Source of the DNA: an uncultured Clostridia bacterium
GTDB taxonomy: Bacteria; Bacillota; Clostridia; Christensenellales; UBA1242
Length of the DNA stretch: 64,000 nt
Assembly: GCA_934757855.1 (NCBI GenBank)
Contig: CAKVLR010000002.1
Span: forward strand, 361,397 to 425,396
Direction: 5' to 3'
Part shown: positions 124 through 62,258 of the stretch, piece after piece
How the letters are laid out: the number at the start of each line of letters is the position of its first letter
How positions within the stretch are numbered: the stretch's first letter is position 1
Notes under the pieces: generated by a model
Database searches by the model: none
What the model saw: only the letters and a program-made list of their open reading frames with translations
Told to the model about the DNA's origin: nothing
Program-made: the position numbers and the translations under genes

Positions 124-139
124 TGTTTCACGTGAAACA
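124..139. promoter_or_regulatory. parS: parS (ParB/Spo0J binding site), perfect TGTTTCACGTGAAACA
   Basis: Exact 16-bp palindrome matching the Firmicutes parS consensus TGTTNCACGTGAAACA. Confidence 0.8.
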
Positions 140-215
140 TTAAATTATATAAGCGTTTCACTGTCTTATGCAATCGTTATAATATTAAAAGCGGCTTAAA
201 TATGTCTTATATAAA

Positions 216-230
216 TGTTCCACATGAACA
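216..230. promoter_or_regulatory. degenerate parS-like palindrome TGTTCCACATGAACA
   Basis: 15-nt palindrome related to parS but one base short and with central changes. Confidence 0.25.
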
Positions 231-295
231 TTTATACTGTTATGTAATAGTATTTAATTATGGTTGCATCGAAAACAGATAAACTCATATGCAAA

Positions 296-311
296 TATTT
301 CATGTGAAACA
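296..311. promoter_or_regulatory. parS-like site, 2 mismatches (TATTTCATGTGAAACA)
   Basis: 14/16 match to parS consensus. Confidence 0.4.
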
Positions 312-621
312 ACATCTTTAAACAACCTGCATTACTTTTATTGTGTGATTGTTTTGTGATTATTTTTAACAAATATTACTATTATACTTACTTTTACTGA
401 TTTTGTATTTTATATATAAATTTTTATTGCATTTAGTATTAGGTTTAAGGTGTTTAAAAATGTTAATTTTCTTTGTAAAAACATTCAATAATGTTTGTTT
501 TTGTAGTTGCTTTTTATAATAGACTTAAAAACGCATCGTTTTTTTGTTTATTGTTAAGAAATTATAATTTATTTAGTTTAACTTTTAATATAACTTATTG
601 CATAATACATTTTGTAAAAAA

Positions 622-637
622 TGTTTCATGTGAAACA
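622..637. promoter_or_regulatory. parS: parS-like site, 1 mismatch (TGTTTCATGTGAAACA)
   Basis: 15/16 match to parS consensus. Confidence 0.6.
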
Positions 638-1008
638 AAATATTGAATTATCGTTGTATTATTCAATCTCTATTGCTGTTTGACTGTTGTTATTTACTAA
701 ATTTATTTCAAATGACATATAATGAAAGCATTTTGTAAAAAGTATATTATAAAATTAAAATTACGCTTTATATTAATAAATAATTAATAAAAAACGATAA
801 AATGATTATGTGGTAATACATTATTTAATTTTTAATTTTATATATTATTATTAAACAATATATTTATATGCTAATCTTATCTTAATTCAAAAATTAAATG
901 CGTTTATATAAATATAGTTCGTTGCTATCAGTGCAATTTTGTTTGTTTTTAATTAAACTTTTAATTAAAATCGTGTTAATATGTATATAAATTAAAAACA
1001 AGACGCAA

Positions 1009-1024
1009 TGTTTCACGTGAAACA
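1009..1024. promoter_or_regulatory. parS: parS, perfect TGTTTCACGTGAAACA
   Basis: Exact 16-bp consensus, 20 bp downstream of the rsmG stop. Confidence 0.8.
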
Positions 1025-1043
1025 AAAACAGGCTATTTGCCTG

Positions 1044-1760
1044 CTATAATGGTTTTGTTTTAATTAAATTTTTAGGTCGCGGGTATTTTGATGGCGTTTT
1101 ATCATCTTTTTTAATGTAAATTATATTTCTTTCAAATATTTCATTGTTTAAACTTAAATTATATTTTTCTATTGAAATAATGCTAGAATTGAGTGTTTTT
1201 AATGCATTTTTTGCATTATGTAATTCATTTTCACAGTTTAACGATTTTAATGCTACGAACTCCCCGCCTGTTTTGGTATATGGTATGCAGTATTCAGCGA
1301 GTATGTTTAATGGAGCGACTGCTCTTGCTATTGTGTAATCAAATGTTTCACGTGAAACATTGTGTTCTTGTAACTCCTGGGCTCTTGAATGAATTGTTGT
1401 TATATTTTTGAGTTTTAACAGGGAAATAACAGTATTTAGAAAGTTTATTCGTTTATTAAGACTGTCAACTAGTGTAAAATTTAAATCAGGTCGCATTATT
1501 TTTAACGGTATGGCTGGAAACCCTGCTCCAGTACCTATATCGCAAATAGTTGAGTTTTGTATAAAGTATTTATAGTTCAAAACACTGTCTATAAAATGTT
1601 TTACAACAACTTCACTAAAATCGGTGATTGCTGTTAAGTTTAAAACTTTATTTGTTTCTATGAGTATTGCATAGTACTGCAAAAACTGCTCAATTTGCTC
1701 ATTTTTTAATAAAATTTCGTGTTTTTTAAATAAATCTATTAAAATTTCTCTATTTTCCAT
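1044..1760 (-). CDS. rsmG: 16S rRNA (guanine527-N7)-methyltransferase RsmG (GidB)
   Basis: 238 aa; SAM-binding motif DIGTGAGFPAIPLKI; lies downstream of and overlaps mnmG as in the conserved mnmE-mnmG-rsmG cluster. Confidence 0.92.
   Translation of the reverse strand: MENREILIDLFKKHEILLKNEQIEQFLQYYAILIETNKVLNLTAITDFSEVVVKHFIDSVLNYKYFIQNSTICDIGTGAGFPAIPLKIMRPDLNFTLVDSLNKRINFLNTVISLLKLKNITTIHSRAQELQEHNVSRETFDYTIARAVAPLNILAEYCIPYTKTGGEFVALKSLNCENELHNAKNALKTLNSSIISIEKYNLSLNNEIFERNIIYIKKDDKTPSKYPRPKNLIKTKPL
1344..1359. promoter_or_regulatory. parS: parS, perfect, embedded in rsmG coding sequence
   Basis: Exact 16-bp consensus; encodes ..NVSRETF.. within rsmG. Confidence 0.8.
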
Positions 1761-3633
1761 TGCTACTCCTATTTTTATATCTTTTTAGATAAATAGTCAA
1801 AATACTAATATCTGCTGGCGATACGCCACTGATTCTGCTTGCTTGTGCTAGATTTTGTGGTTGTACGCGCGCTAATTTCTGTTGCGCTTCAATTCGTAAG
1901 CCTTTCAGGGCGCTGTAATCTAAATCTTGCGGTATGAATATATTTTCGTTTTGTTCTTGGCTTTTGATTTGTTCTTGCTGAATATTGATATAACCCTCGT
2001 ATTTGGCTAAAATGTTTAATTGTTGCAATATTTCTTGTGAAAGGTCATCAAAAAAGTGAAATTTTGCGTTAAAATCGAAAATATCAATACTGTTTCGCTT
2101 TAAAAGTGAGCGAATGGTAATCCCACTTTTTATTGCTGGTTCGCCGTGCGATTTTAAATATTCTTGCAATTGTTGACTTGGCGATAAGACTTTGTTTAAT
2201 ATCTCCTCGCCTTTTTTAATGTCGCGTTCTTTCTTTAAAACTTTGAGATAATTTTTTCGTGTTACCAAACCAGCTTGGTATCCTAATTTGGATAATCGAA
2301 TATCGGCATTATCTTGCCTGAGTAGTAAGCGGTATTCTGCTCGTGAGGTCATCATTCTATATGGCTCGTTTGTGCCTTTTGTGACTAAATCATCGACCAA
2401 AACGCCTATATATGCATCATTTCGCTTTAAAATAAGTGGTTTTTTGCCTCTAACATACAAACTTGCATTTAAACCAGCCAAAATCCCTTGCGCTCCCGCC
2501 TCCTCGTAACCACTAGTGCCGTTTACTTGTCCAGCGAAAAATAATCCTGCAAGGCGCTTGTATTGTAGTGTAGCATCTAGGTCTGTTGAGTCAATGCAAT
2601 CGTATTCAATGGCATATGCATATCGCATTAAGTGCGCATTTTCTAAGCCTTTTATACTGTGAATAAAATCTAATTGCGAATGATACGGTAAACTGCTTGA
2701 AAGACCTTGTACATATATTTCATTGGTACTCATCGCCTCTGGTTCTAAGAAAAACTGGTGTCTATTTTTGTCTGCAAATCGTACAATTTTATCTTCGATT
2801 GAAGGACAATATCTTGGGCCTACCCCCTTAATTACTCCTTGATAGAGGGGGCTGTATTTTAGATTGGCGCGTATAATCTCGTGAGTGCGCTCGTTTGTGT
2901 AGCCCATATAGCAACTTGTTATGTTTTTTGGTAAGCGCCTAGTATTTTTGCTAAATGGCGGTAAATTCTCCTCGCCTTTTTGCTCCTCTAGCGCATCAAA
3001 ATTTATTGTGCGCCTATCCACTCTCATCGGCGTGCCTGTCTTAAAGCGTAAAATTTTTAAACCTAACCTTTGCAAACTCGCTGTAAGTTTGGTCGCGTTG
3101 GTAAATCCATTCGGTCCACTATTCCTTATATAATTGCCTGTAAGCGTACGGCTGTTTAAATAAACGCCAGTGCAAACCACTACCGCTTTTGCGTGGAACC
3201 TCTCACCCATTCCTGTTTCGATTCCCCAAAGTTTTCCTTGCTTGGTGATTATTTTGGTAACTTCACCCTGTAAAATCGTCAAATTTGGTTGATTTTCAAG
3301 AGTTGATTTCATAATCTCGTGATAACGAACTTTATCAACCTGAACGCGCAGTGAATGAACGGCTGGACCTTTTGAGCTATTTAACATTCGCTTATGCAAA
3401 GTCGCTTGGTCGGCTGTATGCCCCATTTCCCCGCCTAAGGCGTCAATTTCAAAAACCAAATGCCCTTTTGCTGTCCCGCCTATGCTTGGATTGCAAGGTA
3501 AAAAACCGATTCCATCTAGGTTGAGAGTTGTAATCAAAGTGTTTAGCCCCGTCCTAGCGCACGCCAAACTTGCCTCACAACCAGCGTGTCCCGCACCGAT
3601 GACTATCACATCATATTCTTTGTAATTTTTCAT
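1750..3633 (-). CDS. mnmG: tRNA uridine 5-carboxymethylaminomethyl modification enzyme MnmG (GidA)
   Basis: 627 aa; N-terminal FAD motif VIVIGAGHAGCEA; GidA-typical length and C-terminal domain. Confidence 0.97.
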   Translation of the reverse strand: MKNYKEYDVIVIGAGHAGCEASLACARTGLNTLITTLNLDGIGFLPCNPSIGGTAKGHLVFEIDALGGEMGHTADQATLHKRMLNSSKGPAVHSLRVQVDKVRYHEIMKSTLENQPNLTILQGEVTKIITKQGKLWGIETGMGERFHAKAVVVCTGVYLNSRTLTGNYIRNSGPNGFTNATKLTASLQRLGLKILRFKTGTPMRVDRRTINFDALEEQKGEENLPPFSKNTRRLPKNITSCYMGYTNERTHEIIRANLKYSPLYQGVIKGVGPRYCPSIEDKIVRFADKNRHQFFLEPEAMSTNEIYVQGLSSSLPYHSQLDFIHSIKGLENAHLMRYAYAIEYDCIDSTDLDATLQYKRLAGLFFAGQVNGTSGYEEAGAQGILAGLNASLYVRGKKPLILKRNDAYIGVLVDDLVTKGTNEPYRMMTSRAEYRLLLRQDNADIRLSKLGYQAGLVTRKNYLKVLKKERDIKKGEEILNKVLSPSQQLQEYLKSHGEPAIKSGITIRSLLKRNSIDIFDFNAKFHFFDDLSQEILQQLNILAKYEGYINIQQEQIKSQEQNENIFIPQDLDYSALKGLRIEAQQKLARVQPQNLAQASRISGVSPADISILTIYLKRYKNRSSNGK

Positions 3634-4665
3634 TTTATTTTCCTCGATAAATGTATATTATAATTATACCATATTTTGAATAAAATGTATAGATGTAAAA
3701 AGTATTTTTTGGTATCAAATTTAATTTTTAGATAGGTTCTATTTGTTTGCAAAAAGTATATTTATACATAAATAAAATTATTGATTATTAACTTGCAAAA
3801 AATGTGTTCAGAAAAAAATAGAGCAAAAGATTAAAATTTTTTACAAACATAAAAATTTTGAAAAAATATAAAAAAATATGAAAAAAATTAAAAAACTGAT
3901 ATATTAATTATTTTGTTGCGTTTTTTTAGTAAATATTATATAATTAAACGGTTTTTATGCGATTTGCTATTTAAAAGATTTTATAGTGAGATTTATTATA
4001 AATTGCAGACTTTTACGGTCTTTGTGATTGCATAAAAATAAATTAGTATTTATAAACATACATAGATGTAATGTTTTAATTTTTAATGTTTCTTTACGGC
4101 TGAAAATATTTTGCGGTTTGGATTTTTCTGTTGTTCGTTGCCACAGTTTTTTGAATATGGTATGTGTTTTATGGAATAAACTCTTAATAATGAAAGAGGG
4201 AATGTTAGTTATCTTATCAATCGATTACCGCAGTCGCTCTACGCACTCTTTCGTAATGCTTTGGAGTACCGCTAGGTACGGAAAGTCTGGCAGAAAAATA
4301 AGATTAATGGAATGACAAGTAATGCCAGCCAGTTGGAGCGTATTGGAGTCAGATATTCTAATTTAGAATAACAAATTTATGTTATAATAGAACGGTTAAG
4401 TAATAGCAAGTACGAAATTGTCATTGCGAGGGAGTGAAATGACCGCGGCAATCTAAAAAATAATAAGTAGATAAAAATTATATACCTCTTATCTTCGCAG
4501 GGCAGGTATTGTAATCTCTTCAAATTTTCATTTTTTCGTGCGGGAAATGTCTAAATTTGGCGAAAAGTAGTGAAAAATTGCAAATTTTTTCAAAAATTTT
4601 TAATTTGGTGCTTATTTTATTTGTGAAATTACACAAAATAAGATATAATTATAGTAAACATTTAG

Positions 4666-5985
4666 TTGATAGTTTTTAAAAATGGAGGAGTTTATGTACA
4701 AAAACAAAGAAGAAGCCCGCAGGGGGGGGGGCGCTTTAATAGCTCTAAAACAACTTGTATTTCAAGGAATAAAAAGGCATTTCTAATTGGGTTAATTTGT
4801 GCAAGTTTTGCCTTAATTTTAGGTGCAAGTTTACTTATTTTGAAGATTTTACCAAAGTTGAATGGGGTCGAAGAGCCTGGAAGGAGTTATACATTAACTA
4901 TTTCTCCTAGTGAAGGTGGTTATGCTATGTATATAAGAAACGGTGGTACTGCCTCAAAAGTAACCAGTAGTATTTATGCAAATGGTTGGGAAAATGAATC
5001 TACAACTTCTCTAACGGCGTATCCTAATTCTGGTTATCAATTTGTGAAGTGGGTATATAAGAACACAACATACACAACTGCATCTATCTATTATAATGGT
5101 GGCGGTATAAGTTTATATTTTGAAAAGACTGCTTTAATTGTGACAACTATTTCTAACGACTCCACGCAAGGCGGTGTTTCTGGAACGGGTGAGGTTACAA
5201 AAGGTCAATCTACCACAATCACTGCAACTCCAAATCGAGGGTATGCTTTTGATTGCTGGAAAAATAGTAACGGTGAGGTGATATCAACTAAGGCAAGTTA
5301 TACATTTACGCCGACTGAGGATATAACTTTAACGGCATATTTTAAGGTTGCGTATGTCACTATTCACAAAGGTGATGCTACCATTAGCGATTTTATTCAA
5401 GTTTATGATGATACAAATTTAACTCTAAAAATAGTAATTTCACCAAACGCAGGCGAGTATGTCAGTGAAATTTCTTTTGATAATTCGGTATTTTATGCGA
5501 TTGAAAGTTGGAAAGCCGAACTCTATGGCGCGTGTGCTGATGCTCTCAGTGTGACTTATTCGGTGACTAGTGGAACAAATAAATTTGGTATGTTTTTTGA
5601 TTATGTGTATGCAACGCCGAGTATAGATATTTATGTTCGTACGACAAATCAAGCCTATACCTCACTAAAAAAGCCAACTGCGGGTGGGGTGAGTAGCGTT
5701 GCGGTAACGGCTACATTAGGCGGAACGGTTACACTAGTGGGTGATGATTATGAAAGTTTAACTGAAAGCGATACAATCATTTGCTCGGCAACTCCTTGTA
5801 TGCAAGGCTACACATTTGCTGGGTGGTATTTGTCTGGTGATATGGCAAAACCTATCTCAACAAGCCTAAGTGTGCGCCTCGCAAAATCAACAATTTATGG
5901 GCAAGAATTAATCGCAAAATTTGAAAAAATCTCAACTTCAAACAACATAAATAGCGAAACCAACAACACAACTGATATACTATAA
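4666..5985 (+). CDS. membrane-anchored surface protein with Listeria-Bacteroides (Flg_new) repeats; likely phase-variable
   Basis: Repeat signatures GYQFVKW, GYAFDCW..TLTAYF and GYTFAGWY. TM helix LIGLICASFALILGASLLIL. The ORF-track TTG start (4666) has no SD. The SD GGAGG (4684-4688) plus ATG 4694 is out of frame with the gene body because of the G10 tract. Confidence 0.8.
   Translation: MIVFKNGGVYVQKQRRSPQGGGRFNSSKTTCISRNKKAFLIGLICASFALILGASLLILKILPKLNGVEEPGRSYTLTISPSEGGYAMYIRNGGTASKVTSSIYANGWENESTTSLTAYPNSGYQFVKWVYKNTTYTTASIYYNGGGISLYFEKTALIVTTISNDSTQGGVSGTGEVTKGQSTTITATPNRGYAFDCWKNSNGEVISTKASYTFTPTEDITLTAYFKVAYVTIHKGDATISDFIQVYDDTNLTLKIVISPNAGEYVSEISFDNSVFYAIESWKAELYGACADALSVTYSVTSGTNKFGMFFDYVYATPSIDIYVRTTNQAYTSLKKPTAGGVSSVAVTATLGGTVTLVGDDYESLTESDTIICSATPCMQGYTFAGWYLSGDMAKPISTSLSVRLAKSTIYGQELIAKFEKISTSNNINSETNNTTDIL
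4722..4731 (+). repeat. homopolymeric G10 tract between the SD/ATG and the gene body (slipped-strand switch candidate)
   Basis: 10 consecutive G counted directly, in an otherwise AT-rich genome. Confidence 0.9.
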
Positions 5986-6173
5986 TCAATAGCACAAATA
6001 CTCTAATTATGTGGAAATATTGTGAACTGAATATGTGTGTTTATACAGTAATAACACAAACAAGATTTTACACCATATTATGCTAAAATACTCGCAAATA
6101 AAACTATCCAAATTTTGCAAAAAATTATCTAAAAAAATATACTAAAAAATACAAGAAAAATAATCTAAAAAAG

Positions 6174-6374
6174 TTTTCCACTTTTTCTCAAACAAAACAT
6201 TCGTTTTAAACAAATGTTTTAGTAATTTAAAAAGTGCTTAACTAAGCCATATTTTAAAGTTATCCACATTAAAAAGTTGCTTTAATCAAGTGACTTTTTA
6301 ATTTTTTATACCAAAATGTGGAAAAAACTTGGAGTTTTCCACAAGTTATCCACATATTTTTCCACTTATCCACA
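6174..6374. promoter_or_regulatory. DnaA-box cluster
   Basis: Perfect TTATCCACA at 6260, 6346 and 6366. TTTTCCACA at 6335 and, on the reverse strand, at 6317-6325. Weaker TTTTCCACT at 6174 and 6358. A very AT-rich stretch follows at 6450-6520. Confidence 0.7.
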
Positions 6375-6541
6375 TTTTTAGATTTATTAAATCAAGAATA
6401 ATTATATAAAAAAATATCTAAAAAATTTTGAAAAAATATGTCGAAAATGTTTTGTTTTATATAATAATATATGATACAATATATATGTAAATTAATAATA
6501 TTTTTCGGGCAATTTGGCATAATAAAATAGAGGTATAAAAA

Positions 6542-9500
6542 ATGAACAAAAGTTTACAAATGGTAAGTTGGTTTACTGGGGTGATTTTGGGAATAGTTGT
6601 TTTGCTTTTTGGCGGATTAAATCTCACACAAAATCGCAAGGCAGTGCTAGGCTATCCGCAGTACACGACTTTTTGGCTCGATAGCGCGGTAAAATATATC
6701 GAGTCGGAGCAATCTGCTGGCACTAAACAATATCCATATTTAATCAACACACCTGAGCAGTTGGCGTACATTGCAAAGGCTGTGAACGGCGGTACGGTTG
6801 ATAATGATGGAAATGTGCAGTATCTTGATTTTAGCGGGGTATTTTTCCAACTCAACGCCGATATTGATTTGAGCGGGAGTAACTGGGTGCCTATTGGAAA
6901 CGAGGCGCACCCATTTAAAGGTGTATTTTATGGCAATGGTAAAAAAATCTCAAATATGGTGATTGACTCAACTATGATGAACGCGACCGCTGGCGGAGTT
7001 GTTGTGAATGATTTTAGACAAAGCCTAGGATTGTTTGGTTATGTTGGGTACAACGGGAGTGCTGGAGAAACTGCTTCCACAATCAATCAGTTGGTTATTG
7101 AAAATGCATACATAAACGCTTGCGAATACGCGCAATATGCGGGTACAGTTGCGGGGGTATTTGAGGGCGCAAGTTTAAATAATATCACTATCATTAGCCC
7201 TACGAGTGAAACTTCAAACGACACGACTAGCGCGGGCGCCGTGATTTATCACAATTTGACCGACGCAAGTGTAATGAGTGCGGACTTTATCGCGGGCGGT
7301 GTGGTAGGAAAGTTGGGTAACTCGACTAGCACAACCGTTGCAAACCTTAGCAATGCGAACCACGATAACGAAATTTTGACTTCTATAAAATCAACTATTT
7401 ACGACAACAACGGCTATTCAGTCGTTTTGGGTGGTTTAGTCGGTGAAAATAATGGTACTCTCAAAGAAAGTCGCCGTACTGGTGGCGAGATAAACGCGTT
7501 TATCGGTACAATCGGTGGTTTGGTCGGTGTAAATAGTGCTAGCGGGAAAATGCTAGACTGCTACAACTACGGAAACATTTTGATTGACCCACTTTTGCCA
7601 AACGGTGTGAGCGTAGATAGTGGCTTAAACAAGGCAGAAGAAACGGTCATCGGTGGTATGGCTGGTAAAAACTTTGGTAGCATTTCTATCGAGAATTTTA
7701 GTGCAATTTACGGTACTGTCGAAGGGCAAAATGTTGCGCAAGTATTCCAAACTTGCCGAGGACTAATCGGTGGTATCGCGGGAACAAGTAAAGGAACGAT
7801 TGAAAATATCACAAATTTTGCATTTGTAAAATGTACGGGCGACCAAGTGCAATATATGGGTGGTATTACCGCAATTAATGCGGGTACAATTCGTAAATGT
7901 GTAAATAAAGGCATCGTTGGTGCGGACGGAAATACTGAATTTTCAGCAAAGGCAGTCGGCGGTATCACTGGGCTAAATGATAGTGCATCAATAGGTGATG
8001 GCGCAGAGCAGTTGGGCGATGGTAAGATTTATGGTGTAGAAAACAAGGCTGACACTGGTATCAATATTAATGCGGAAAATGCGGGCGGTATCGCGGGTAT
8101 CAATGCAAGTACTGGAAATATTACCTCTTATGAGGCTGGCGTGGTGGCTGGTGTAGTGCGAAATTTAGGAAATGTGCAAGGCACATCTGCCGTTGGTGGT
8201 ATCGTTGGTAAAAATTACGGTACAGTGGAATATGTTTACAATACAACAAATATTAGTTGCGCAAGCAATGCGGACTCGGCTAGCGTGGGGGGCGTAGTTG
8301 GAATTATGAGCAAAGGCGCAATCAAAAATAGTTTCAATGTAGGACAAGTGCTTGATGGATATAATGTTGGTGGTTTTGTAGGCACAATGGAAAATAGAAC
8401 GGCAAGAATCGAAAATTGTATCAATTACGGAAGCGTAACAGGTAGCAGAGGATATGTTGGCGGTTTTGCTGGATATATCGAAGCGGGCGCGCTTAGCAAG
8501 GTAATCGCTATTTGTGATGTGACTGAAAACGGTGACTCGCCTTTGGGTATCGGTGGTGTAATCGGTGCGGTAAAATTAAGCAATGGTGCGCCTGATACAG
8601 GAGTTACGCTAGAAAACTATTTCTATTCGGAAAGCATTGCAAACTACGAAGAAGATGAATTTGGCGTAACTGATAACGGAATGATAGCAATCGGTAATAC
8701 TGACATCAACAAATGGGCAAAAATGGACAGTTACAAGATGACTTTGCCATATGTAGAAAGCAAAATGACTGGTAGTGACAGATACCGTAGCGGTTTGTAT
8801 AAGGCTGGTTCTACGGGTGCTGAAATTGAAAACACTGACTGGTACTTTAACACAGCAAATGAAACGGCAAATACATATTATTATCCTATTTTGCGTGCGT
8901 TTAGGGCTGGGGAAACAAATTCACTCAATGTCTATGGCGCAACGGCAGATGCGGTGAAACCTGAAAACGGACTCGAATACCCAAGCGAAACGATTTTTAG
9001 AGTAGAATTTAGAAACAATTATCCATACTGGAATGTAAACGCCAAAGATTACGAAGAACGCGTAATTTGTGAAGATAGATATGTAGTAAACGGACATTAT
9101 ACGGCTGAGCCAAACTCAGACCTTTACGATAAGCCAGCAGGCTTTTATATGCAATGGAAACAGACCGATATTGATATGACTACTGCTCCACAAAATTGGA
9201 GTTTTACAAATAAAGTTACTAGAAATATGCGCATATACATTGATTGGACCGAAAAAACTTATACAATTAAATATTACTTGCAACTAAATGGTGTAGGTGA
9301 ATTTGTAGAGATGACCGCGGAAGAAAGAGAGCAATTTGGACTGAGCGATTCTTCAACATATAGCCTTGACCCTAACGCAAAATCAAGTCTAAATGCGATT
9401 AATATACCTGAGCCAAAATTGTTTGGTTATTCTTTTGATGGCTGGTGGATAAGCAAGACCGCAAGCGGAATAGGTGCTACTCTTGATGAGACGGACAAAG

Positions 9501-11167
9501 TGACCGAATTTTCACGCAACGAAGTTTATGCAGAAGATATTATATATGTATATGGTAAAAAGACTGCTGAAACATACACTGTTTACCTTTACCCAGGCGT
9601 AAACAACTCAAATATTGCTATGAAATTTGTTGATGCACAAGAGGGTACGCCAAAAGTTGTGACCCTTACATATGGTGAGGCTTTTGATTTGAGCGACATT
9701 CAAGCGCAACTCGATTATGACCCAGCAGACATAACATTTAAAGGTTGGTTTAGTAACGAGGGGACGGGCGGTACACAATACACAAATACAAATTCAGTTA
9801 GTATTGGTGTGTTTAAACTAACTGGCACGGGCGCAATTCGTTGGTACGCGCAATGGACTGATTCAATGCAAAAAATCTTGTTTGTAAGTATTGATGAAAA
9901 CGGAACTGAGCAAAATTTAGGCTCAACTTCGGTGCCTTTTGGAAATATATTCACTTACGAACAATTTGTAAGCCAAAACCTCAAATATTATGTGATAGAT
10001 GAGCGCGGTGGTTATGAAATTGACAGGTGCTTTGCAGATGCAAGTTTGCTTACCTTGTTTGATTTTAATAATAACTCAATTACTGATAGAACGACAATTT
10101 ACATTACTTGGAAAAAGAAATTTTTTAGCCTTAGGCTTAACGCCGATGGTGGCGCGTTTAGTGATGATTCGACCGTTTATGTGATTAATAATATCGAATA
10201 CAAGAGTGACTTTTTGGGCGAAGTGCTAAACAATCTTGCCGATACGCAAATGCCAGCGCGCATAGGTTATAAGGTAAAGAGAGTGAATGATATTGCAATT
10301 TGGAACGAACAGCCAAACGGGCAAGGCGCGGTGATTTCTTACGCGAACAACAACTACATTATGCCTGCATATGACCTAAATATCTACATTTCTTGGGAAG
10401 TGGAAAAATACACTGTGCAGATTGTAGCAAATGGCGGTTTGTTTACGACCGAAAATGGCAGTACGCCTTCAATTAATATTGCGCTCGAATACAATACTTC
10501 ATTGAAACAAGCGCTTGACCGCTACTTTGTGGCTAATGCATTGCCTACAAACGAGGGGTACGGTTTTAGGTATTGGAGTTTGCAAAACGCAGGTATTGAT
10601 GACACGCCAGCACCAGCCTTGACCGATAGCGACAAAGTGCCATATCTTGGTACAACCGTTTATGCAACTTGGGGCAGACAATATATCGTTAAATTTAAAA
10701 AGATATTCTACGATGATGAAACATCTTGGCTAGAAATCAAAGTATTTGAAGGGGATTGTGTTAGCGAACCAGACACTTCTTCCACAGACTTTATGGTAGC
10801 GGGTATGGACTTTGTAGAATGGAAACAATATATGGGTACAATCACAAATGAAAATGGCGAAAAAGAACAAGTTTATCAAGCATATGATTGGCTCGAGCCT
10901 GTCACTAGCGACTTAATTTTAGTAGGTACTTGGACACCAAACGGTGGCAAAACGGACCCTATCGACACAAGCAATATCTTGATTATCGCAATTTCAATAA
11001 TCGCTGGTATTGTGGTGATTATGTTTGTGGTTATTTTGGCGCGTAGCCGTAAAAAAGGACTAGAAGTTTCGAATAAACGCCTACAAACCAAAAATAGCAA
11101 GGAAAAATTAGAAAAAATACGCGAAATTGAAAAACGCCGTAAAAATGACAACCCATTCGATTTCTAA
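6542..11167 (+). CDS. giant surface protein (1541 aa): N-terminal signal anchor, GLUG-type glycine-rich beta-helix repeats, Listeria-Bacteroides repeats, C-terminal TM plus basic tail
   Basis: Repeated GG(I/L/V)(A/V)G..N motifs. Later GYSFDGWW, FKGWFS and GYGFRYWS repeats. C-terminus IIAISIIAGIVVIMFVVILARSRKK. No LPXTG motif. Confidence 0.85.
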   Translation: MNKSLQMVSWFTGVILGIVVLLFGGLNLTQNRKAVLGYPQYTTFWLDSAVKYIESEQSAGTKQYPYLINTPEQLAYIAKAVNGGTVDNDGNVQYLDFSGVFFQLNADIDLSGSNWVPIGNEAHPFKGVFYGNGKKISNMVIDSTMMNATAGGVVVNDFRQSLGLFGYVGYNGSAGETASTINQLVIENAYINACEYAQYAGTVAGVFEGASLNNITIISPTSETSNDTTSAGAVIYHNLTDASVMSADFIAGGVVGKLGNSTSTTVANLSNANHDNEILTSIKSTIYDNNGYSVVLGGLVGENNGTLKESRRTGGEINAFIGTIGGLVGVNSASGKMLDCYNYGNILIDPLLPNGVSVDSGLNKAEETVIGGMAGKNFGSISIENFSAIYGTVEGQNVAQVFQTCRGLIGGIAGTSKGTIENITNFAFVKCTGDQVQYMGGITAINAGTIRKCVNKGIVGADGNTEFSAKAVGGITGLNDSASIGDGAEQLGDGKIYGVENKADTGININAENAGGIAGINASTGNITSYEAGVVAGVVRNLGNVQGTSAVGGIVGKNYGTVEYVYNTTNISCASNADSASVGGVVGIMSKGAIKNSFNVGQVLDGYNVGGFVGTMENRTARIENCINYGSVTGSRGYVGGFAGYIEAGALSKVIAICDVTENGDSPLGIGGVIGAVKLSNGAPDTGVTLENYFYSESIANYEEDEFGVTDNGMIAIGNTDINKWAKMDSYKMTLPYVESKMTGSDRYRSGLYKAGSTGAEIENTDWYFNTANETANTYYYPILRAFRAGETNSLNVYGATADAVKPENGLEYPSETIFRVEFRNNYPYWNVNAKDYEERVICEDRYVVNGHYTAEPNSDLYDKPAGFYMQWKQTDIDMTTAPQNWSFTNKVTRNMRIYIDWTEKTYTIKYYLQLNGVGEFVEMTAEEREQFGLSDSSTYSLDPNAKSSLNAINIPEPKLFGYSFDGWWISKTASGIGATLDETDKVTEFSRNEVYAEDIIYVYGKKTAETYTVYLYPGVNNSNIAMKFVDAQEGTPKVVTLTYGEAFDLSDIQAQLDYDPADITFKGWFSNEGTGGTQYTNTNSVSIGVFKLTGTGAIRWYAQWTDSMQKILFVSIDENGTEQNLGSTSVPFGNIFTYEQFVSQNLKYYVIDERGGYEIDRCFADASLLTLFDFNNNSITDRTTIYITWKKKFFSLRLNADGGAFSDDSTVYVINNIEYKSDFLGEVLNNLADTQMPARIGYKVKRVNDIAIWNEQPNGQGAVISYANNNYIMPAYDLNIYISWEVEKYTVQIVANGGLFTTENGSTPSINIALEYNTSLKQALDRYFVANALPTNEGYGFRYWSLQNAGIDDTPAPALTDSDKVPYLGTTVYATWGRQYIVKFKKIFYDDETSWLEIKVFEGDCVSEPDTSSTDFMVAGMDFVEWKQYMGTITNENGEKEQVYQAYDWLEPVTSDLILVGTWTPNGGKTDPIDTSNILIIAISIIAGIVVIMFVVILARSRKKGLEVSNKRLQTKNSKEKLEKIREIEKRRKNDNPFDF

Positions 11168-11350: not shown

Positions 11351-12658
11351 CTATTTTCCTAAGCAGAATTTTGCAAAAATTTCATTTATTATGTGTTCAC
11401 TTGCTGTTGTGCCTGTGATTTCGCCCAGCGCGTCCCACGCCTGCATAAGCGTAATCGCGAGGCAGTCGAGCGGAGCAGTCTTGCTATTTGAAATAGTATC
11501 ATTTAAAGCAGATTTTGCTTTTTCAAGGCACGCAATATGTCTGCTGTTGGTAAGTAAAATATCATTATCAGCAAGGTGAGAATTGATAGTTTTATCAAAA
11601 ATAAGTTGTTTGAGTTTGTCTATATTTTGTCCAGTTTTTGCGCTAATTGTCAAATCAAAGTCAGCCGAATTTGTATTGTGCTGGTCTATTTTATTGAGAA
11701 TTTTTATGCAATTTTTGTTTTTAATTTCAGGCAAAACTTCATCAATCTTATCTTGCACCAAAACCACCAAATCGGCGGAATTTATTTCATCAAAAGCACG
11801 CTTTATGCCCGCATTTTCGACAATATCTGCGGTATCGCGAAGCCCTGCGGTATCGGTAACATTAAACAGCACTCCGTTAAATTCATAACTTTCGTTTAGC
11901 GTGTCGCGAGTCGTACCCGCAATGTCCGTTACAATCGCGCGCTCATAGCCCACAAGCGCATTTAATATGCTACTTTTACCTACATTAGGGTCGCCCGCAA
12001 GCACTACTTTTACGCCGTTTTTGATTTTTAATCCAGTTTGCGCGGTTGCAAGTTGTGTGTCAATTTTTTGTATCGTTTTCGCACAAAATTCACTTACCTT
12101 TACAGCCGTAATGTATTCAATATCGTGTTCGGGGTAGTCGAGCGCAACATTTACCTCGCATATGCAGTTGGTGAGGTCATCTTGCATTTCTTCTACAAAG
12201 CGCTTTAAATTCCCATACATTAGCCTAGACCCAGCGCGCAAAGAGGACATACTGTTTGCATTGATTATGTCGATAATTCCTTCGGCTTGACTCATATCCA
12301 TTTGCCCATTGAGTACGGCACGCTTGCTAAATTCGCCACGCTCCGCAGTCCTAGCCCCTGCACGGTTTAATGCACGCATAACCGCAACACTGAGGTAATA
12401 ACCGCCGTGAATTTGCAGTTCGACCACTTCTTCGCCCGTAAAACTTTTTGGCGCGGGGAAATAAAGCCCTAACGCATCATCGCTTACTCCATCAAATTCG
12501 ATTTTGCCAAAAATAGCCTTTCGCGGGGTAGGGGCTTTCTCTCTAAACGGCACAAAAATTTGCTTTGCAATTTCCAAAGCACGCTCGCCACTTATTCTAA
12601 TTATCGCAACTCCGCCGTTGCCTAGTGGGGTCGCAATCGCACAAATTGTATCAGCCAT
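11351..12658 (-). CDS. mnmE: tRNA modification GTPase MnmE (TrmE/ThdF)
   Basis: 435 aa; G1 motif GDPNVGKSS, DTAG, C-terminal CLGK. Confidence 0.96.
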   Translation of the reverse strand: MADTICAIATPLGNGGVAIIRISGERALEIAKQIFVPFREKAPTPRKAIFGKIEFDGVSDDALGLYFPAPKSFTGEEVVELQIHGGYYLSVAVMRALNRAGARTAERGEFSKRAVLNGQMDMSQAEGIIDIINANSMSSLRAGSRLMYGNLKRFVEEMQDDLTNCICEVNVALDYPEHDIEYITAVKVSEFCAKTIQKIDTQLATAQTGLKIKNGVKVVLAGDPNVGKSSILNALVGYERAIVTDIAGTTRDTLNESYEFNGVLFNVTDTAGLRDTADIVENAGIKRAFDEINSADLVVLVQDKIDEVLPEIKNKNCIKILNKIDQHNTNSADFDLTISAKTGQNIDKLKQLIFDKTINSHLADNDILLTNSRHIACLEKAKSALNDTISNSKTAPLDCLAITLMQAWDALGEITGTTASEHIINEIFAKFCLGK

Positions 12659-26116: not shown

Positions 26117-26428
26117 ATGAATTTTGGCGTGCCATATAGAGGGACTCCGCAACCGCGCTCGGGGCAATATTTTACCAAAAATGAGTTGATAACAGCCGTT
26201 CGAGAAGATATAATCGGTGAGTTGGAAGCGATAAATCAATACAATGCACACATTGTTAGCACAGATAACGAACTTGCTAGGCGCGTTTGGGCGGATATTC
26301 GTGATGAAGAACGAGTACATACAGGCGAATTGATAACGCTATTAAATCAACTTAGCCCAGATGAGTTGCAAAAACTCCAACAAGGGCAGGCGGAAGTAGA
26401 AAAAATAATGCGCGAACTAGGATTGTAA
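26117..26428 (+). CDS. encapsulated-ferritin-like (EncFtn family) protein
   Basis: IGELEAINQY...IRDEERVHTGELITLL parallels the EncFtn E...ExxH di-iron motif; AGGAGG SD. Confidence 0.55.
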   Translation: MNFGVPYRGTPQPRSGQYFTKNELITAVREDIIGELEAINQYNAHIVSTDNELARRVWADIRDEERVHTGELITLLNQLSPDELQKLQQGQAEVEKIMRELGL

Positions 26429-32480: not shown

Positions 32481-32497
32481 TTATCCACTTTTCCACA
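32481..32497. promoter_or_regulatory. two adjacent DnaA-box-like 9-mers (TTATCCACT, TTTTCCACA)
   Basis: Read directly; 1 mismatch each to TTATCCACA. Confidence 0.4.
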
Positions 32498-32588: not shown

Positions 32589-32861
32589 TTATTTAATTTT
32601 ACGAATTATGCTTTTTGCTGATTTGATAGGAATAGGGGAAATTTGTGCGGATAAATTGCGCTCTATTTTGAGTATTTTGGCAGTGCAAGTTTCATTTTTT
32701 AACCCCACAGGCACTAGTACCAAATCGCTAATTTTTAAATCTAAAATATCAAAAATATACCAGCGTATTGCACCTGCAAGAGAGCCGCCCAAAATCTCCA
32801 CTTTTGCGAAATCAGCCATTGCCAAATCGCGTATTTTTCCGCCCGCAAGGGAGTGAATCAT
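32589..32861 (-). CDS. hypothetical protein (90 aa)
   Basis: ORF only; no confident motif. Confidence 0.4.
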   Translation of the reverse strand: MIHSLAGGKIRDLAMADFAKVEILGGSLAGAIRWYIFDILDLKISDLVLVPVGLKNETCTAKILKIERNLSAQISPIPIKSAKSIIRKIK

Positions 32862-37654: not shown

Positions 37655-39310
37655 CTATAAAATATTTGTACCGCCGTTGTCCGTTGTGTCGTTTATGTTT
37701 GCGTTAGTTATCGGCTCAAAAGTCGCCGTAATTATCGCATTTTTGATGAGGTTAAACGGAATATTTACACTAAGTTTGTTGTACGCGGAAAGGTCCGCAC
37801 CATTGCTTGCAGTCCAGCCAGTAAAATTATAGCCCGTGAATGGTACAGCGCTTAGATGAATAGTGCTTGTGTTATCATCATAGCCAATCACACGCGCCTC
37901 ACCACCACTGCTAGCCGAGATTGCCACGCCCTCAATTTTAGACCCATAACTAGGCGTTTTTAGCGTTTGTTTGGTGTTGGTTAGGTTTACAGTTATATTT
38001 GTAGTTCCATAAAGATACTCAAAACTCATCGACACGACATTTGTTTCTTCTTTTGCATAGTAGGTAATTCGGTTTGCGTTGCCCGCGCCATACAGCACAC
38101 CCTCATAATATTCGGTAGGGTAGGTCGTGTTGCCAACCGTGATGCTGTTTACATACATTCCGCTACTAGGGGTAAGGACTAAGTAATCAGTATCGCCTAT
38201 TTTTTCGTTTGAGTAAGTACCTTCACCTCCACTAAACGCGACTGTAATGGTAGGTAAGGCTTTGAAATATGCAACAAGTGTACTATCTTGTGTAATAGTA
38301 AATGAAAGAGGGTTCGCTGTTTTGCGTTCGTTGTTTAATAACCAATAATCAAAGGTATAGTTGCTTTCTGGCACCGCTTGCGCCTTTACGGTGCTATTTT
38401 TGGCATATTCAGTGGTTGTGTCTACAATTGCACCCCCACCAGTAGGTGATACACTGGTAGATAAAGTATAACCAGTAAATGTCCAATTAGCCATAGCAGT
38501 TATATCACTAGTCCAAAGCCATAAAGTTGATGAGGTTATTCGTGTACTATTTATATACCAACCATTAAAAATGTATAATTCTCTTTGTGCAGTTGGTAAA
38601 GAGGAAGATATTGTTTGATTGTATGTAACATTAATAGTATTACTGGCTCCAGTACCACCATTAAAATCAAATGATAAGCGGTAAGTTTTTGCAGTCACAC
38701 CTGAACTAATAGATAGTTTTAATACGCCTACATAAAAGTAAGTATAGATTGATGCAAACGTTTTTTTACTAAGAAGGGCGCATGAAAAACCTGAGTTTGA
38801 ACTAGTAAAGTTATTTCCCGAGCAAGTATAAGAAACTGTGGTGTAATTCGATGAGTCACTACTGTTTACATTAGCAAGTGCATTAGATAGAGCTGTTGAT
38901 TCATCGCTTGTGGTTACTTGTCCTAAGTTTCCACTTTTTGTGCCCCAAGCAAATTTTGCACTAAATGAAGTAGGGGACCAAGTGCAACCTTTTGGTGTTA
39001 AACTAAATGCTCCAGTCCATTGATAGAAGTAATAATAATTGTCCGTGCTAGATGTTGTTCCTTGCTGTTTTGTTGTAATACCTGTAATATTACAACTATC
39101 CACATAGATTCCATCATCTACATAAATATATATTTTACCATATCCAGTTTTGCTATCCTTAGTTACTGTTGTTCTCGAAGAACTAAAACTGCTCTCACTT
39201 GCCAGTGCGGGAGGAGTTTTTGGAGTTATGAGAACACATACTAGCGCTACGACACCAGCCACCAAAATTGATACAAAAATGGCTGAAATTTTGTAAATTT
39301 TTGCGTTCAT
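37655..39310 (-). CDS. membrane-anchored surface protein with Listeria-Bacteroides repeats (paralog of 4666-5985)
   Basis: N-terminal anchor ISAIFVSILVAGVVALV. Repeats FNGWYI, YTFDYWL and YNFTGW. The C-terminal tail ..TFEPITNANINDTTDNGGTNIL parallels ..KFEKISTSNNINSETNNTTDIL. Confidence 0.8.
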   Translation of the reverse strand: MNAKIYKISAIFVSILVAGVVALVCVLITPKTPPALASESSFSSSRTTVTKDSKTGYGKIYIYVDDGIYVDSCNITGITTKQQGTTSSTDNYYYFYQWTGAFSLTPKGCTWSPTSFSAKFAWGTKSGNLGQVTTSDESTALSNALANVNSSDSSNYTTVSYTCSGNNFTSSNSGFSCALLSKKTFASIYTYFYVGVLKLSISSGVTAKTYRLSFDFNGGTGASNTINVTYNQTISSSLPTAQRELYIFNGWYINSTRITSSTLWLWTSDITAMANWTFTGYTLSTSVSPTGGGAIVDTTTEYAKNSTVKAQAVPESNYTFDYWLLNNERKTANPLSFTITQDSTLVAYFKALPTITVAFSGGEGTYSNEKIGDTDYLVLTPSSGMYVNSITVGNTTYPTEYYEGVLYGAGNANRITYYAKEETNVVSMSFEYLYGTTNITVNLTNTKQTLKTPSYGSKIEGVAISASSGGEARVIGYDDNTSTIHLSAVPFTGYNFTGWTASNGADLSAYNKLSVNIPFNLIKNAIITATFEPITNANINDTTDNGGTNIL

Positions 39311-42829: not shown

Positions 42830-42966
42830 TTTAAACAAAAAAATTAATTAAATTTATCAAATTTTATTGCTAAAAAAATATAAAAAAAATTACCTAAAAA
42901 TTAGTGACTTAAATTTACCCGAACACTTACTCTTAAAATTTAGAGTGTTTAGAAAGGAGGAAAATT

Positions 42967-46813: not shown

Positions 46814-46845
46814 TTTTCCACAATGTGTTGATTTTGTGTGGATAA
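46814..46845. promoter_or_regulatory. pair of convergent DnaA boxes upstream of trpS
   Basis: TTTTCCACA at 46814-46822 and a perfect TGTGGATAA at 46837-46845. Confidence 0.45.
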
Positions 46846-50784: not shown

Positions 50785-50970
50785 CGATATTGACCTAGCG
50801 GTCAATGATATTACTCACTATCGTTCGTAGTGATATTATTTACTAGCGTAAATAATGATATGATATTTGCCTTCACTGCAAACAAAGTTTGCAATATCAC
50901 TCGCTAAGCGAATATCATTGCGGAGCAATATCACTCACGCAGTGAATATCACTGAGCCGTAGGCTCAATT
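50785..50970. repeat. array of eight different short hairpins separated by GATAT (x5), then ATATC (x4), linker words
   Basis: GATAT at 50786, 50807, 50832, 50857 and 50862. ATATC at 50894, 50912, 50928 and 50946. Hairpins at 50791-50804, 50815-50833, 50838-50853, 50877-50893, 50901-50911, 50917-50929, 50931-50945 and 50953-50967. Confidence 0.8.
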
Positions 50971-50974
50971 TCAT

Positions 50975-51019
50975 TGTAAACAAAAGGAAAAGCCTCATAG
51001 GCTTTCCTTTTTTGTTTAC
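50975..51019. terminator. long hairpin with flanking A/T tracts (bidirectional terminator type)
   Basis: GTAAACAAAAGGAAAAGCC-TCAT-AGGCTTTCCTTTTTTGTTTAC. Confidence 0.7.
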
Positions 51020-62255: not shown

Positions 62256-62258
62256 AAT

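What the first reader, a model, noticed from the sequence alone, without database searches (positions are those of the whole stretch)
6174..6520. DnaA-box cluster plus AT-rich stretch between two adhesin genes, with no dnaA nearby
About 200 bp contain three perfect TTATCCACA boxes (6260, 6346, 6366), two TTTTCCACA boxes (6335, and reverse at 6317) and two weaker boxes.

Four of the boxes are packed into 6335-6374. A strongly AT-rich segment follows at about 6450-6520.

This is the architecture of an oriC sub-region or of a DnaA-box cluster (DBC). It lies in the promoter region of a 1541-aa surface protein, inside an insert that splits mnmE from mnmG.

Smaller box pairs occur at 32481-32497 and 46814-46845, the latter upstream of trpS.
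Basis: partly seen in the sequence, partly recalled or inferred. Interest (0 to 1): 0.55.

Follow-up and report, generated by a model that had tools for sequence, protein, structure and literature searches.

The report
Conserved DnaA-box cluster near origin
A tight, evolutionarily conserved group of binding sites for the replication initiator DnaA lies about 12 kb from the probable chromosome origin of an uncultured gut Clostridia bacterium; it is most likely an auxiliary DnaA-binding cluster of the kind known from Bacillus subtilis, not the origin itself.

Summary
Window 6260-6374 holds 3 perfect and 2 one-mismatch DnaA boxes, plus a conserved two-mismatch box. No simulated 64-kb sequence reached this density, and no other intergenic region of the window does.

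The cluster is a conserved element. The same boxes with the same spacing (57/18/11/12/8 bp) occur in eight loci from related uncultured Clostridia. In five it lies upstream of the homologue of the 1541-aa protein; in three it lies directly upstream of mnmE.

The AT-rich stretch at 6450-6520 is not tied to the boxes. It stays at a fixed distance from the start codon of the 1541-aa gene and looks like a promoter with an extended -10 plus a leader.

No DnaA-trio run follows the strong boxes.

About 12 kb to the left, just outside the window, a 3.3-kb gene-free region next to rpmH carries 14 boxes. It also has a core conserved in four lineages: tandem boxes, a CTA-type triplet run, then about 40 nt of pure AT. 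That region is the better oriC candidate.

dnaA lies about 20 kb from the finding.

Verdict: an oriC-proximal DnaA-box cluster (DBC), a new member of a known kind. Local GC skew and gene orientation do not exclude an origin role.

The parts
6260..6374 (+). The conserved DnaA-box cluster (DBC) as a whole. It has six boxes at start-to-start spacings of 57, 18, 11, 12 and 8 bp.
   Evidence: Alignment A5 of eight loci. Majority fraction is 0.88 in box columns and 0.58 in spacer columns.
6260..6268 (+). Distal perfect box TTATCCACA, within the invariant motif AAGTTATCCACA.
   Evidence: Invariant in all 8 loci.
6317..6325 (-). Inverted box TTTTCCACA (1 mismatch).
   Evidence: Conserved in the five loci linked to the 1541-aa gene family and degenerate in the three mnmE-linked loci.
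6335..6343 (+). Tandem box 1, TTTTCCACA (1 mismatch).
6346..6354 (+). Tandem box 2, TTATCCACA (perfect).
6358..6366 (+). Tandem box 3, TTTTCCACT (2 mismatches). It overlaps the next box by 1 nt.
   Evidence: Column conservation 0.94.
6366..6374 (+). Tandem box 4, TTATCCACA (perfect).
6174..6182 (+). Weak box TTTTCCACT (2 mismatches). It is not conserved in relatives.
6452..6480 (+). Promoter-like element of the 1541-aa gene: TTGTTT (6452-6457), a 17-nt spacer, TG (6472-6473) and TACAAT (6475-6480). This is the core of the 'AT-rich stretch'.
   Evidence: Columns T.TG.TA.A.T are invariant in five lineages and anchored to the start codon, not to the boxes. The promoter function is inferred. The generic promoter scan was uninformative.
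6530..6544 (+). Ribosome-binding site GAGG and the ATG of the 1541-aa gene.
6542..11167 (+). Gene for a 1541-aa protein with an N-terminal hydrophobic segment and no Pfam or NCBIfam match. Its homologues follow the cluster in five lineages.
4666..5985 (+). Gene for a 439-aa protein with an InlB B-repeat (Flg_new_2). It lies between mnmG and the cluster and is absent at this position in L086.
1750..3633 (-). mnmG (gidA).
11351..12658 (-). mnmE (trmE/thdF).
124..1359 (.). Five parS sites (TGTTTCACGTGAAACA; three perfect) at 124, 296, 622, 1009 and 1344. They mark the origin-proximal domain.
   Evidence: 5 found against 0.06 expected.

Best explanation
What it is. Window 6260-6374 is an oriC-proximal DnaA-box cluster (DBC). 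It is a roughly 115-bp cassette of six DnaA boxes with fixed spacing: one distal box, one inverted box and four head-to-tail boxes. It binds several DnaA molecules cooperatively. It is not the site where the chromosome is unwound.

Where the origin probably is. The probable origin is the 3.3-kb gene-free, box-rich region beside rpmH, about 12 kb to the left of the cluster and just outside the window.

How the cluster most likely works (inferred, by analogy with the Bacillus subtilis DBCs).
- It holds DnaA close to the origin and so damps or times initiation.
- As a side effect it may modulate transcription of whichever promoter lies next to it: the 1541-aa gene here and in four other lineages, mnmE in three lineages, and mnmG-rsmG-parAB in L086.

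What is shown.
- The boxes, their statistical excess and their conservation in number and spacing across eight loci.
- The changing gene neighbours of the cluster.
- The AT-rich stretch belongs to the gene's promoter and leader.
- A better origin core exists nearby.

What is inferred. DnaA binding itself, any titration effect, and any transcriptional effect.
For: (1) Density far above chance. There are 5 boxes with <=1 mismatch in 115 bp. None of 300 simulations exceeded 3. It is the outlier among 38 intergenic regions.

(2) Conservation targeted to the boxes. Eight loci, with MnmE 69-100% identical, keep the boxes and their spacing while the spacers diverge. The majority fraction is 0.88 in boxes and 0.58 in spacers, and AAGTTATCCACA is invariant.

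(3) The cassette keeps its form while its neighbours change.
- It precedes the homologue of the 1541-aa protein in the window, L086, L094, L099/L100 and L097.
- It lies 89-233 bp upstream of mnmE in L091, L092 and L088.
- Its distance to the promoter-like block of the 1541-aa gene varies from 65 to about 590 bp.
- This argues that DnaA binding as such is what is selected.

(4) Origin-proximal position.
- Five parS sites, parAB and the rpmH-rnpA-yidD operon lie within 12 kb.
- The cluster lies 4-12 kb from the rpmH-side core in every lineage where both are seen.

(5) A separate, better origin candidate.
- L002 16113-19418 (window -7657 to -4352) has no ORF of 100 aa or more and carries 14 boxes, 6 of them perfect.
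- Its core reads TTATCCACATATCCACA-CTC CTA CTA ATA ATG, followed by about 40 nt of pure AT.
- This core is conserved in four lineages.
- The triplet run resembles the C. difficile DnaA-trio CAC CTA CTA CTA TTA CTA CTA (PMC7561715).

(6) Precedent.
- B. subtilis has six DBCs outside oriC, nearly all oriC-proximal, one of them between thdF (mnmE) and jag. Deleting all six causes over-initiation (PMC3245932).
- DnaA appears to repress trmE-noc (PMC4447404).
Against: - The four tandem boxes point toward one of the least stable duplex segments of the region (rank 4 of 73 kb). That is origin-like.
- The cumulative GC-skew minimum of the 82 kb available lies at about +3.6 kb. That is 2.6 kb from the cluster and about 9.5 kb from the rpmH-side core.
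- Genes between the two candidates (mnmG, rsmG, parA, parB, yidC) would be co-directional with replication only if the origin lay at or near the cluster. Their third-position skews resemble the presumed leading-strand class slightly more, but the signal is within noise.
- The gene-free rpmH-side region has a GC skew of -0.18 to -0.28 on both sides of its putative core, with no sign change. This is unexplained.
- The triplet criterion alone is weak: 27 of 358 boxes with <=2 mismatches have a run of 5 or more by chance.
- No binding, unwinding or replication data exist for this organism.
Confidence: 0.65

Rival explanations
1. The cluster is the replication origin itself, or one half of a split (bipartite) origin. 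The tandem boxes would load DnaA toward the AT-rich segment 6375-6520, which would melt. The rpmH-side region would then be the auxiliary or regulatory cluster.
For: - Four head-to-tail boxes are oriented toward a very unstable AT-rich segment.
- The local cumulative GC-skew and AT-skew minima lie at about +3.6 to +5.6 kb.
- In both the window genome and L086, placing the origin here gives the best co-orientation of genes with replication.
- The element is conserved in eight loci.
- mnmG/gidA-adjacent origins are known, for example in E. coli (my own knowledge).
Against: - No run of three or more NTN triplets starts within 16 bp downstream of any strong box.
- The AT-rich block is anchored to the start codon of the 1541-aa gene and has the form TTGnnn-17-TGnTAnAAT. 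Its distance from the boxes varies from 65 to about 590 bp. In the three mnmE-linked copies nothing AT-rich and conserved follows the tandem boxes.
- A separation of 10-12 kb is far beyond known bipartite origins, which are split only by dnaA.
- The skew minimum coincides with a switch in gene orientation, and the replication component of the third-position skew is only about 0.02-0.03. The 12 kb between the candidates therefore cannot be resolved.
Confidence: 0.13
2. The cluster is purely a transcriptional operator. DnaA would act here only as a transcription factor that couples expression of the giant 1541-aa envelope protein (and, in other lineages, mnmE or mnmG-parAB) to replication status, with no effect on initiation.
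For: - The cluster travels with the homologue of the 1541-aa gene to different chromosomal positions in five lineages. In L099 it sits on the other side of the rpmH region.
- In three lineages the distal box lies 89-233 bp from the mnmE start.
- DnaA regulates neighbouring genes at several B. subtilis DBCs, including trmE-noc (PMC3245932, PMC4447404).
- DnaA boxes upstream of gidA regulate gidAB-parAB in P. aeruginosa (PMC13438810).
Against: - The boxes lie 113-227 bp upstream of the inferred transcription start and do not overlap the core promoter.
- The distance to that promoter is not conserved (65 to about 590 bp). This fits poorly with a fixed activator or repressor geometry.
- The same cassette serves unrelated neighbours.
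- It is always near the origin wherever the context is visible.
Confidence: 0.17
3. The boxes are a chance or compositional artefact in AT-rich spacer DNA and have no function.
For: The spacer is 21% GC and the box is AT-rich at its 5' end.
Against: - Simulations with the spacer's own composition give a mean of 0.21 boxes per 556 bp and a maximum of 3 in 5000 trials.
- The boxes and their spacing are conserved in eight loci while the spacers diverge.
Confidence: 0.01

Closest known systems
Bacillus subtilis DnaA-box clusters outside oriC (DBCs), in particular DBC[thdF-jag], upstream of trmE/mnmE (PMC3245932, PMC4447404)
   Same: - A Firmicute.
- An intergenic cluster of consensus DnaA boxes.
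- An origin-proximal position.
- Association with the mnmE/mnmG gene group. In three related lineages the homologous cluster sits directly upstream of mnmE.
- Neighbouring promoters that DnaA could modulate.
   Different: - In the window genome the cluster precedes a 1541-aa gene of unknown function, lodged between mnmG and mnmE, rather than mnmE itself.
- jag is absent from the locus.
- DnaA binding and any effect on initiation are untested.
- The cassette has a rigid six-box layout kept across species. I am not aware that this has been reported for the B. subtilis DBCs.
Pseudomonas aeruginosa oriCII, a DnaA-box region upstream of gidA that regulates gidAB-parAB (PMC13438810)
   Same: - A second DnaA-box cluster near the true origin, next to gidA (mnmG)-gidB (rsmG)-parAB.
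- In L086 the cluster lies 320 bp upstream of mnmG-rsmG-parA-parB.
   Different: - A different phylum.
- In the window genome a 439-aa gene lies between the cluster and mnmG, 2.6 kb away.
- The tandem boxes point away from mnmG.
- No expression data exist.
E. coli datA
   Same: A cluster of about five high-affinity DnaA boxes near oriC that restrains re-initiation (as summarised in PMC3245932).
   Different: datA works through IHF-dependent hydrolysis of DnaA-ATP. No IHF site or equivalent was looked for or is evident here, and Firmicute DBCs appear to act differently (PMC3245932).
Firmicute oriC unwinding module: the basal unwinding system (BUS) of DnaA boxes, DnaA-trios and an AT-rich DUE (PMC8287927, PMC6669920, PMC7561715)
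   Same: Tandem consensus boxes in one orientation with an AT-rich, easily melted segment downstream.
   Different: - No trio run lies within 16 bp of the boxes.
- The AT-rich part belongs to a gene's promoter and leader, and its spacing from the boxes varies.
- The rpmH-side core about 12 kb away fits this module much better.

Membership tests
DnaA-box cluster outside oriC (B. subtilis-type DBC) | At least three DnaA boxes (<=1 mismatch) with an average spacing under 100 bp (criterion quoted in PMC7561715) | tested here: met
   Five boxes with <=1 mismatch in 115 bp, plus a conserved two-mismatch box.
DnaA-box cluster outside oriC (B. subtilis-type DBC) | Intergenic, and distinct from the origin's unwinding region | tested here: inconclusive
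   - Intergenic: yes.
- Distinct from oriC: supported by the conserved rpmH-side core 12 kb away and by the lack of trios here.
- The origin has not been mapped experimentally, and the local skew does not decide.
DnaA-box cluster outside oriC (B. subtilis-type DBC) | Origin-proximal position | tested here: met
   Five parS sites, parAB, the rpmH operon and a 14-box gene-free region lie within 12 kb, and dnaA lies about 20 kb away.
DnaA-box cluster outside oriC (B. subtilis-type DBC) | Stable DnaA binding in vivo or in vitro (ChIP, IDAP-seq) | not testable with these tools
   Needs EMSA, ChIP or IDAP-seq with this organism's DnaA. In L084 that protein is 457 aa with the Bac_DnaA and Bac_DnaA_C domains.
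DnaA-box cluster outside oriC (B. subtilis-type DBC) | Deletion alters initiation frequency or neighbouring transcription | not testable with these tools
   The organism is uncultured.
oriC unwinding module (BUS: DnaA box, DnaA-trios, DUE) | A DnaA box (<=2 mismatches) oriented toward the trios | tested here: met
   Tandem boxes at 6335-6374, all on the + strand.
oriC unwinding module (BUS: DnaA box, DnaA-trios, DUE) | At least three consecutive trios (NAN on the trio strand, NTN on the box strand) starting 0-16 bp after the box (PMC8287927) | tested here: not met
   - No such run follows 6260, 6317(-), 6346, 6358 or 6366.
- The only hit for 6335 overlaps the next boxes.
- A run of 8 follows the weak, non-conserved box at 6010-6018(-), enters the 3' end of the 439-aa gene and has one consensus triplet.
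oriC unwinding module (BUS: DnaA box, DnaA-trios, DUE) | An AT-rich unwinding element functionally coupled to the boxes | tested here: not met
   - A segment of low duplex stability is present (rank 4).
- It begins about 80 bp from the last box.
- It keeps register with the gene's start codon, while its distance to the boxes varies from 65 to about 590 bp.
- It is absent from the mnmE-linked copies.
oriC unwinding module (BUS: DnaA box, DnaA-trios, DUE) | Coincidence with the switch of strand compositional asymmetry | tested here: inconclusive
   The cumulative GC-skew minimum lies at about +3.6 kb, 2.6 kb away. It coincides with a switch in gene orientation, and the replication component is too weak to resolve 12 kb. 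The whole genome was not available.
E. coli datA-type element | An IHF-dependent complex that promotes hydrolysis of DnaA-ATP | not tested
   No IHF site search was made, and Firmicutes lack the E. coli system (my own knowledge).
Pseudomonas oriCII-type regulator of gidAB-parAB | DnaA boxes immediately preceding the gidA (mnmG) promoter | tested here: not met
   - In the window, a 439-aa gene and 2.6 kb separate the cluster from mnmG.
- The layout is met only in the relative L086, where the cluster is 320 bp upstream of mnmG.

The most novel reading that the evidence does not exclude
The six-box cassette could be a portable DnaA-sensing module. In this Clostridia clade it repeatedly ends up in front of a giant envelope-protein gene or of mnmE. 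It might therefore tie expression of a major surface protein to the replication cycle.

Alternatively it could serve as a second, conditionally used origin, like the historical 'oriCII'. Inverted copies could also drive the origin-region inversions that distinguish these genomes.
Probability: 0.12. Interest if true: 0.6.

Novelty: new member of a known kind. Interest (0 to 1): 0.3.

Why it matters
If right, this extends oriC-proximal DnaA-box clusters from Bacillus to an uncultured gut Clostridia lineage. So far they have been tested functionally mainly in Bacillus subtilis.

It also shows that such a cluster can be a rigid cassette with conserved spacing that keeps its form while its neighbouring genes change. 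That gives a defined 115-bp sequence for DnaA-binding and titration experiments.

It also corrects an origin prediction. In this clade the probable oriC sits in a gene-free region beside rpmH. It is separated from dnaA by about 6-14 kb, and dnaN is not next to dnaA. Annotation pipelines that look only next to dnaA, or that pick the densest box cluster, would misplace the origin.

Tried and rejected
- Rfam scans of the window and of the rpmH-side region found nothing relevant. The hits were only tRNAs and Gut-1 RNA.
- A tblastn search for a dnaA pseudogene in the gene-free region and in the window found no hit better than E = 0.27.
- The generic sigma-70 promoter scan of 5900-6600 was uninformative: 7 hits against 5.7 expected. 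The promoter call rests on cross-species conservation instead.
- Third-codon-position GC and AT skew was used to decide which strand leads between the two origin candidates. The replication component is about 0.02-0.03 against a per-gene scatter of about 0.15, so the result is inconclusive.
- Duplex stability as a discriminator failed: both candidates rank among the six least stable regions.
- The GTDB representative genomes gave no close relative. The best MnmG match is 65% identical (L004), which has no comparable cluster. The informative relatives came from ENA, Logan and NCBI contigs found through MnmE and YidC homologues.
- L084 is too close (95% identical) to be informative about conservation.
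- The Spo0A-box-like motif TGTCGAA at 6439 is not enriched in the window: 6 found against 6.6 expected.
- I considered a bipartite origin spanning both clusters. I rejected it as unlikely because of the 10-12 kb separation and because the order of the two elements varies.

Full report
**Observation.** The stated boxes are all present. TTATCCACA occurs at 6260, 6346 and 6366 (+), and TTTTCCACA at 6335 (+) and 6317-6325 (-). Two-mismatch boxes lie at 6174, 6358 and 6010-6018(-).
- Perfect 9-mers number 7 in the window against 0.66 expected.
- Five boxes with <=1 mismatch fall within 115 bp. In 300 Markov simulations of the window the maximum in 120 bp was 3.
- Of the 38 intergenic regions in the window, this one is the clear outlier: 5 boxes in 556 bp, against 0.52 per kb elsewhere.
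- The minor pairs at 32481/32489 and 46814/46837 exist.
- The spacer is 21% GC. The 40-mer at 6458 is the 4th least stable duplex segment in 73 kb.

**Context inside the window.** The gene order is rsmG (1044-1760, -), mnmG (1750-3633, -), a 439-aa InlB-B-repeat protein (4666-5985, +), the cluster, a 1541-aa protein with no family match (6542-11167, +), mnmE (11351-12658, -) and a Nudix hydrolase.
- The remaining genes include YqfD (a sporulation protein, so a Firmicute), SufCB-like proteins, trpS and a Cas9-Cas1-Cas2 locus. There is no dnaA or dnaN.
- Five parS sites (TGTTTCACGTGAAACA) lie at 124-1359 and nowhere else: 5 found against 0.06 expected. The window therefore starts inside the origin-proximal domain.
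- In most Clostridia fetched from GTDB, mnmE is immediately upstream of mnmG, with rpmH and dnaA on the far side. The split of mnmE from mnmG is real.

**Context to the left of the window.** An ENA contig identical to the window over the 11.76-kb overlap (L002; window coordinate = 11761 minus L002 coordinate) extends 9 kb further left.
- It carries parA, parB and yidC, then yidD-rnpA-rpmH in the opposite orientation.
- Next comes a 3.3-kb stretch (L002 16113-19418, window -7657 to -4352) with no ORF of 100 aa or more, no Rfam match and no dnaA remnant. It holds 14 boxes with <=1 mismatch, 6 of them perfect.
- L084, a strain about 95% identical across this non-coding region, continues further left. 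It carries a 238-aa gene, two surface-protein genes, then dnaA (457 aa, full Pfam architecture) followed by a RecF-like gene.
- dnaA therefore sits at about window -15.1 to -13.7 kb. It has almost no boxes of its own, and dnaN is not beside it.

**The cluster is a conserved cassette.** I fetched contigs through homologues of MnmE and YidC.
- The same boxes with the same start-to-start spacing (57, 18, 11, 12, 8 bp) occur in L086/L095 (MnmE 90% identical), L090/L094 (70%), L099/L100 and, partly degenerate, L097. In each case the cluster lies upstream of the homologue of the 1541-aa protein.
- A homologous cluster lies 89-233 bp upstream of mnmE in L091 (79%), L092 (69%) and L088 (72%), with no such gene beside it.
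- In the eight-locus alignment A5 the invariant columns are almost confined to the boxes, and AAGTTATCCACA is invariant. The majority fraction is 0.88 in box columns and 0.58 in spacer columns.
- The neighbours differ between lineages. In L086 the cluster lies between the large gene and mnmG-rsmG-parAB, with dnaA divergent from mnmE 6.3 kb away. In L099 the cluster and the large gene lie on the other side of the rpmH region.

**The AT-rich stretch is not a box-coupled unwinding element.** I aligned the region between the last box and the start codon in five lineages (A6).
- The conserved block is AAATGTTT.G, then a 17-nt spacer, then TG.TA.AAT, followed by ATAATAAAA, an RBS and the ATG.
- This block keeps register with the start codon. 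Its distance to the last box is 65 bp in the window and L086, about 170 bp in L094 and L099, and about 590 bp in L097.
- The form TTGnnn-17-TGnTAnAAT is that of a sigma-A promoter with an extended -10. This is an inference; the generic promoter scan was uninformative.
- In the mnmE-linked copies nothing conserved or AT-rich follows the tandem boxes.
- No strong box in the finding is followed within 16 bp by three or more NTN triplets, which is the pattern used to search for DnaA-trios (PMC8287927).

**A better origin core lies next to rpmH.** At L002 17682-17770 (window about -5921 to -6010, window minus strand) the sequence reads TTATCCACATATCCACA-CTC CTA CTA ATA ATG, followed by about 40 nt of pure AT.
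- The same architecture is conserved in L094, L099 and L097. It consists of TT[A/T]TCCACAT[A/T]TCCACA, a short C-rich spacer, TTACTAAT, then TTAAAAAAATAAAATAAATAATAAATTATTTTT. The flanks diverge (A3 and A4).
- The triplet run resembles the C. difficile trio CAC CTA CTA CTA TTA CTA CTA, which precedes its unwinding element (PMC7561715).
- Other boxes of this region are also conserved, including an inverted pair (L002 19195-19211, L094 13389-13404).
- I take this gene-free region to be oriC. That is an inference from anatomy and conservation.

**What does not fit.**
- The cumulative GC skew over the 82 kb available has its minimum at about +3.6 kb (the mnmG / 439-aa gene gap), and the AT-skew minimum is at about +5 kb. 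Both are nearer to the finding than to the rpmH-side core.
- This point is also where gene orientation switches. The replication-associated third-position skew is only about 0.02-0.03 against a per-gene scatter of about 0.15, so the 12 kb between the candidates cannot be resolved.
- Co-orientation of mnmG-rsmG-parAB-yidC with replication would favour an origin at or near the cluster.
- The gene-free region has a strong negative GC skew on both sides of its putative core, which I cannot explain.
- Both AT-rich segments are among the six least stable regions.

**Mechanism.** The best-supported reading is an oriC-proximal DnaA-box cluster. It would be a six-site platform that binds DnaA cooperatively a few kilobases from the origin. 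What is selected is DnaA binding itself, because box number and spacing are kept while neighbours and promoter distances change.
- By analogy with B. subtilis, such clusters restrain initiation and can modulate adjacent promoters.
- In B. subtilis six DBCs are nearly all oriC-proximal, and one lies between thdF (mnmE) and jag. Their combined deletion causes over-initiation (PMC3245932).
- In B. subtilis, DnaA also appears to repress trmE-noc (PMC4447404).
- P. aeruginosa oriCII, upstream of gidA, is another parallel (PMC13438810).
- I give this reading 0.65, an actual origin role 0.13, a purely transcriptional role 0.17, and chance 0.01.

**Novelty and score.** This is a new member of a known kind.
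- Two points are modestly interesting: the rigid conservation of the cassette with changing neighbours, and the decoupling of the probable oriC from dnaA and dnaN in this clade.
- Neither overturns current understanding. Interest 0.3.

Noticed in passing
window 124-139, 296-311, 622-637, 1009-1024, 1344-1359: Five parS sites (TGTTTCACGTGAAACA; three perfect, one inside rsmG) are packed into 1.2 kb between rsmG and parA. The first 1 kb of the window is 21% GC and has no ORF of 60 aa or more.
   Followed up: yes
L002 16113-19418 (window about -7657 to -4352, outside the window); also L094 12142-14109, L099 10482-12148, L097 12055-13256: A gene-free region of 1.2-3.3 kb lies next to rpmH. It has many DnaA boxes and a conserved core of tandem boxes, a triplet run and an AT-rich block, and is the probable oriC. 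On the window + strand its GC skew is -0.18 to -0.28 throughout, which is unexplained.
   Followed up: partly
L084 3261-4634; L086 8351-9724: dnaA is not next to rpmH or dnaN in this clade. It is followed by a RecF-like gene, gyrB, gyrA and polA, and has at most one or two boxes nearby. Its position relative to mnmE differs between close relatives, which implies an inversion of the origin region between the window genome and L086.
   Followed up: partly
window 4251-4479, and window about -8611 to -8893 (L002 20372-20654): Short repeat modules of about 46 and about 100 bp, 85% identical, occur in inverted orientation. They flank the roughly 13-kb segment that carries mnmG-rsmG-parAB-yidC-rpmH and the box-rich region, so they are a possible substrate for inversion. 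They include the motif GTCATTGCGAGGGAGTGAAATGACCGCGGCAATCT.
   Followed up: partly
window 6439-6445: TGTCGAA (Spo0A-box-like) lies 7 bp upstream of the -35-like TTGTTT of the 1541-aa gene. It is the only intergenic copy in the window, but the motif is not enriched overall (6 found against 6.6 expected). It is kept in L086 and altered in more distant relatives.
   Followed up: partly
window 32481-32497 and 46814-46845: Two small DnaA-box groups. One has two overlapping tandem one-mismatch boxes plus a third at 32646, in the gap between cdd and an ABC-transporter gene. The other has a facing pair, one of them perfect, in the gap upstream of trpS.
   Followed up: no
window 50907-50976 (-): An Rfam Gut-1 RNA (RF01706, 54.7 bits) lies between tRNA-Leu genes. 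This is consistent with a gut-associated organism.
   Followed up: no
window 58974-63441: A type II CRISPR-Cas gene set: Cas9 (1093 aa as listed), Cas1 and Cas2. No tandem repeat array was detected in the last 560 bp of the window.
   Followed up: partly
window 26117-26428: An encapsulin-associated ferritin-like (EncB family) cargo protein gene.
   Followed up: no
window 37655-39310, 40079-42829, 52476-56135: Further large genes, either without a family match or with InlB B-repeats. The pair of a 916-aa gene and an adh_short-domain gene (40079-44406) sits directly downstream of mnmE in the relatives L092 and L093, another sign of frequent rearrangement in this clade.
   Followed up: no
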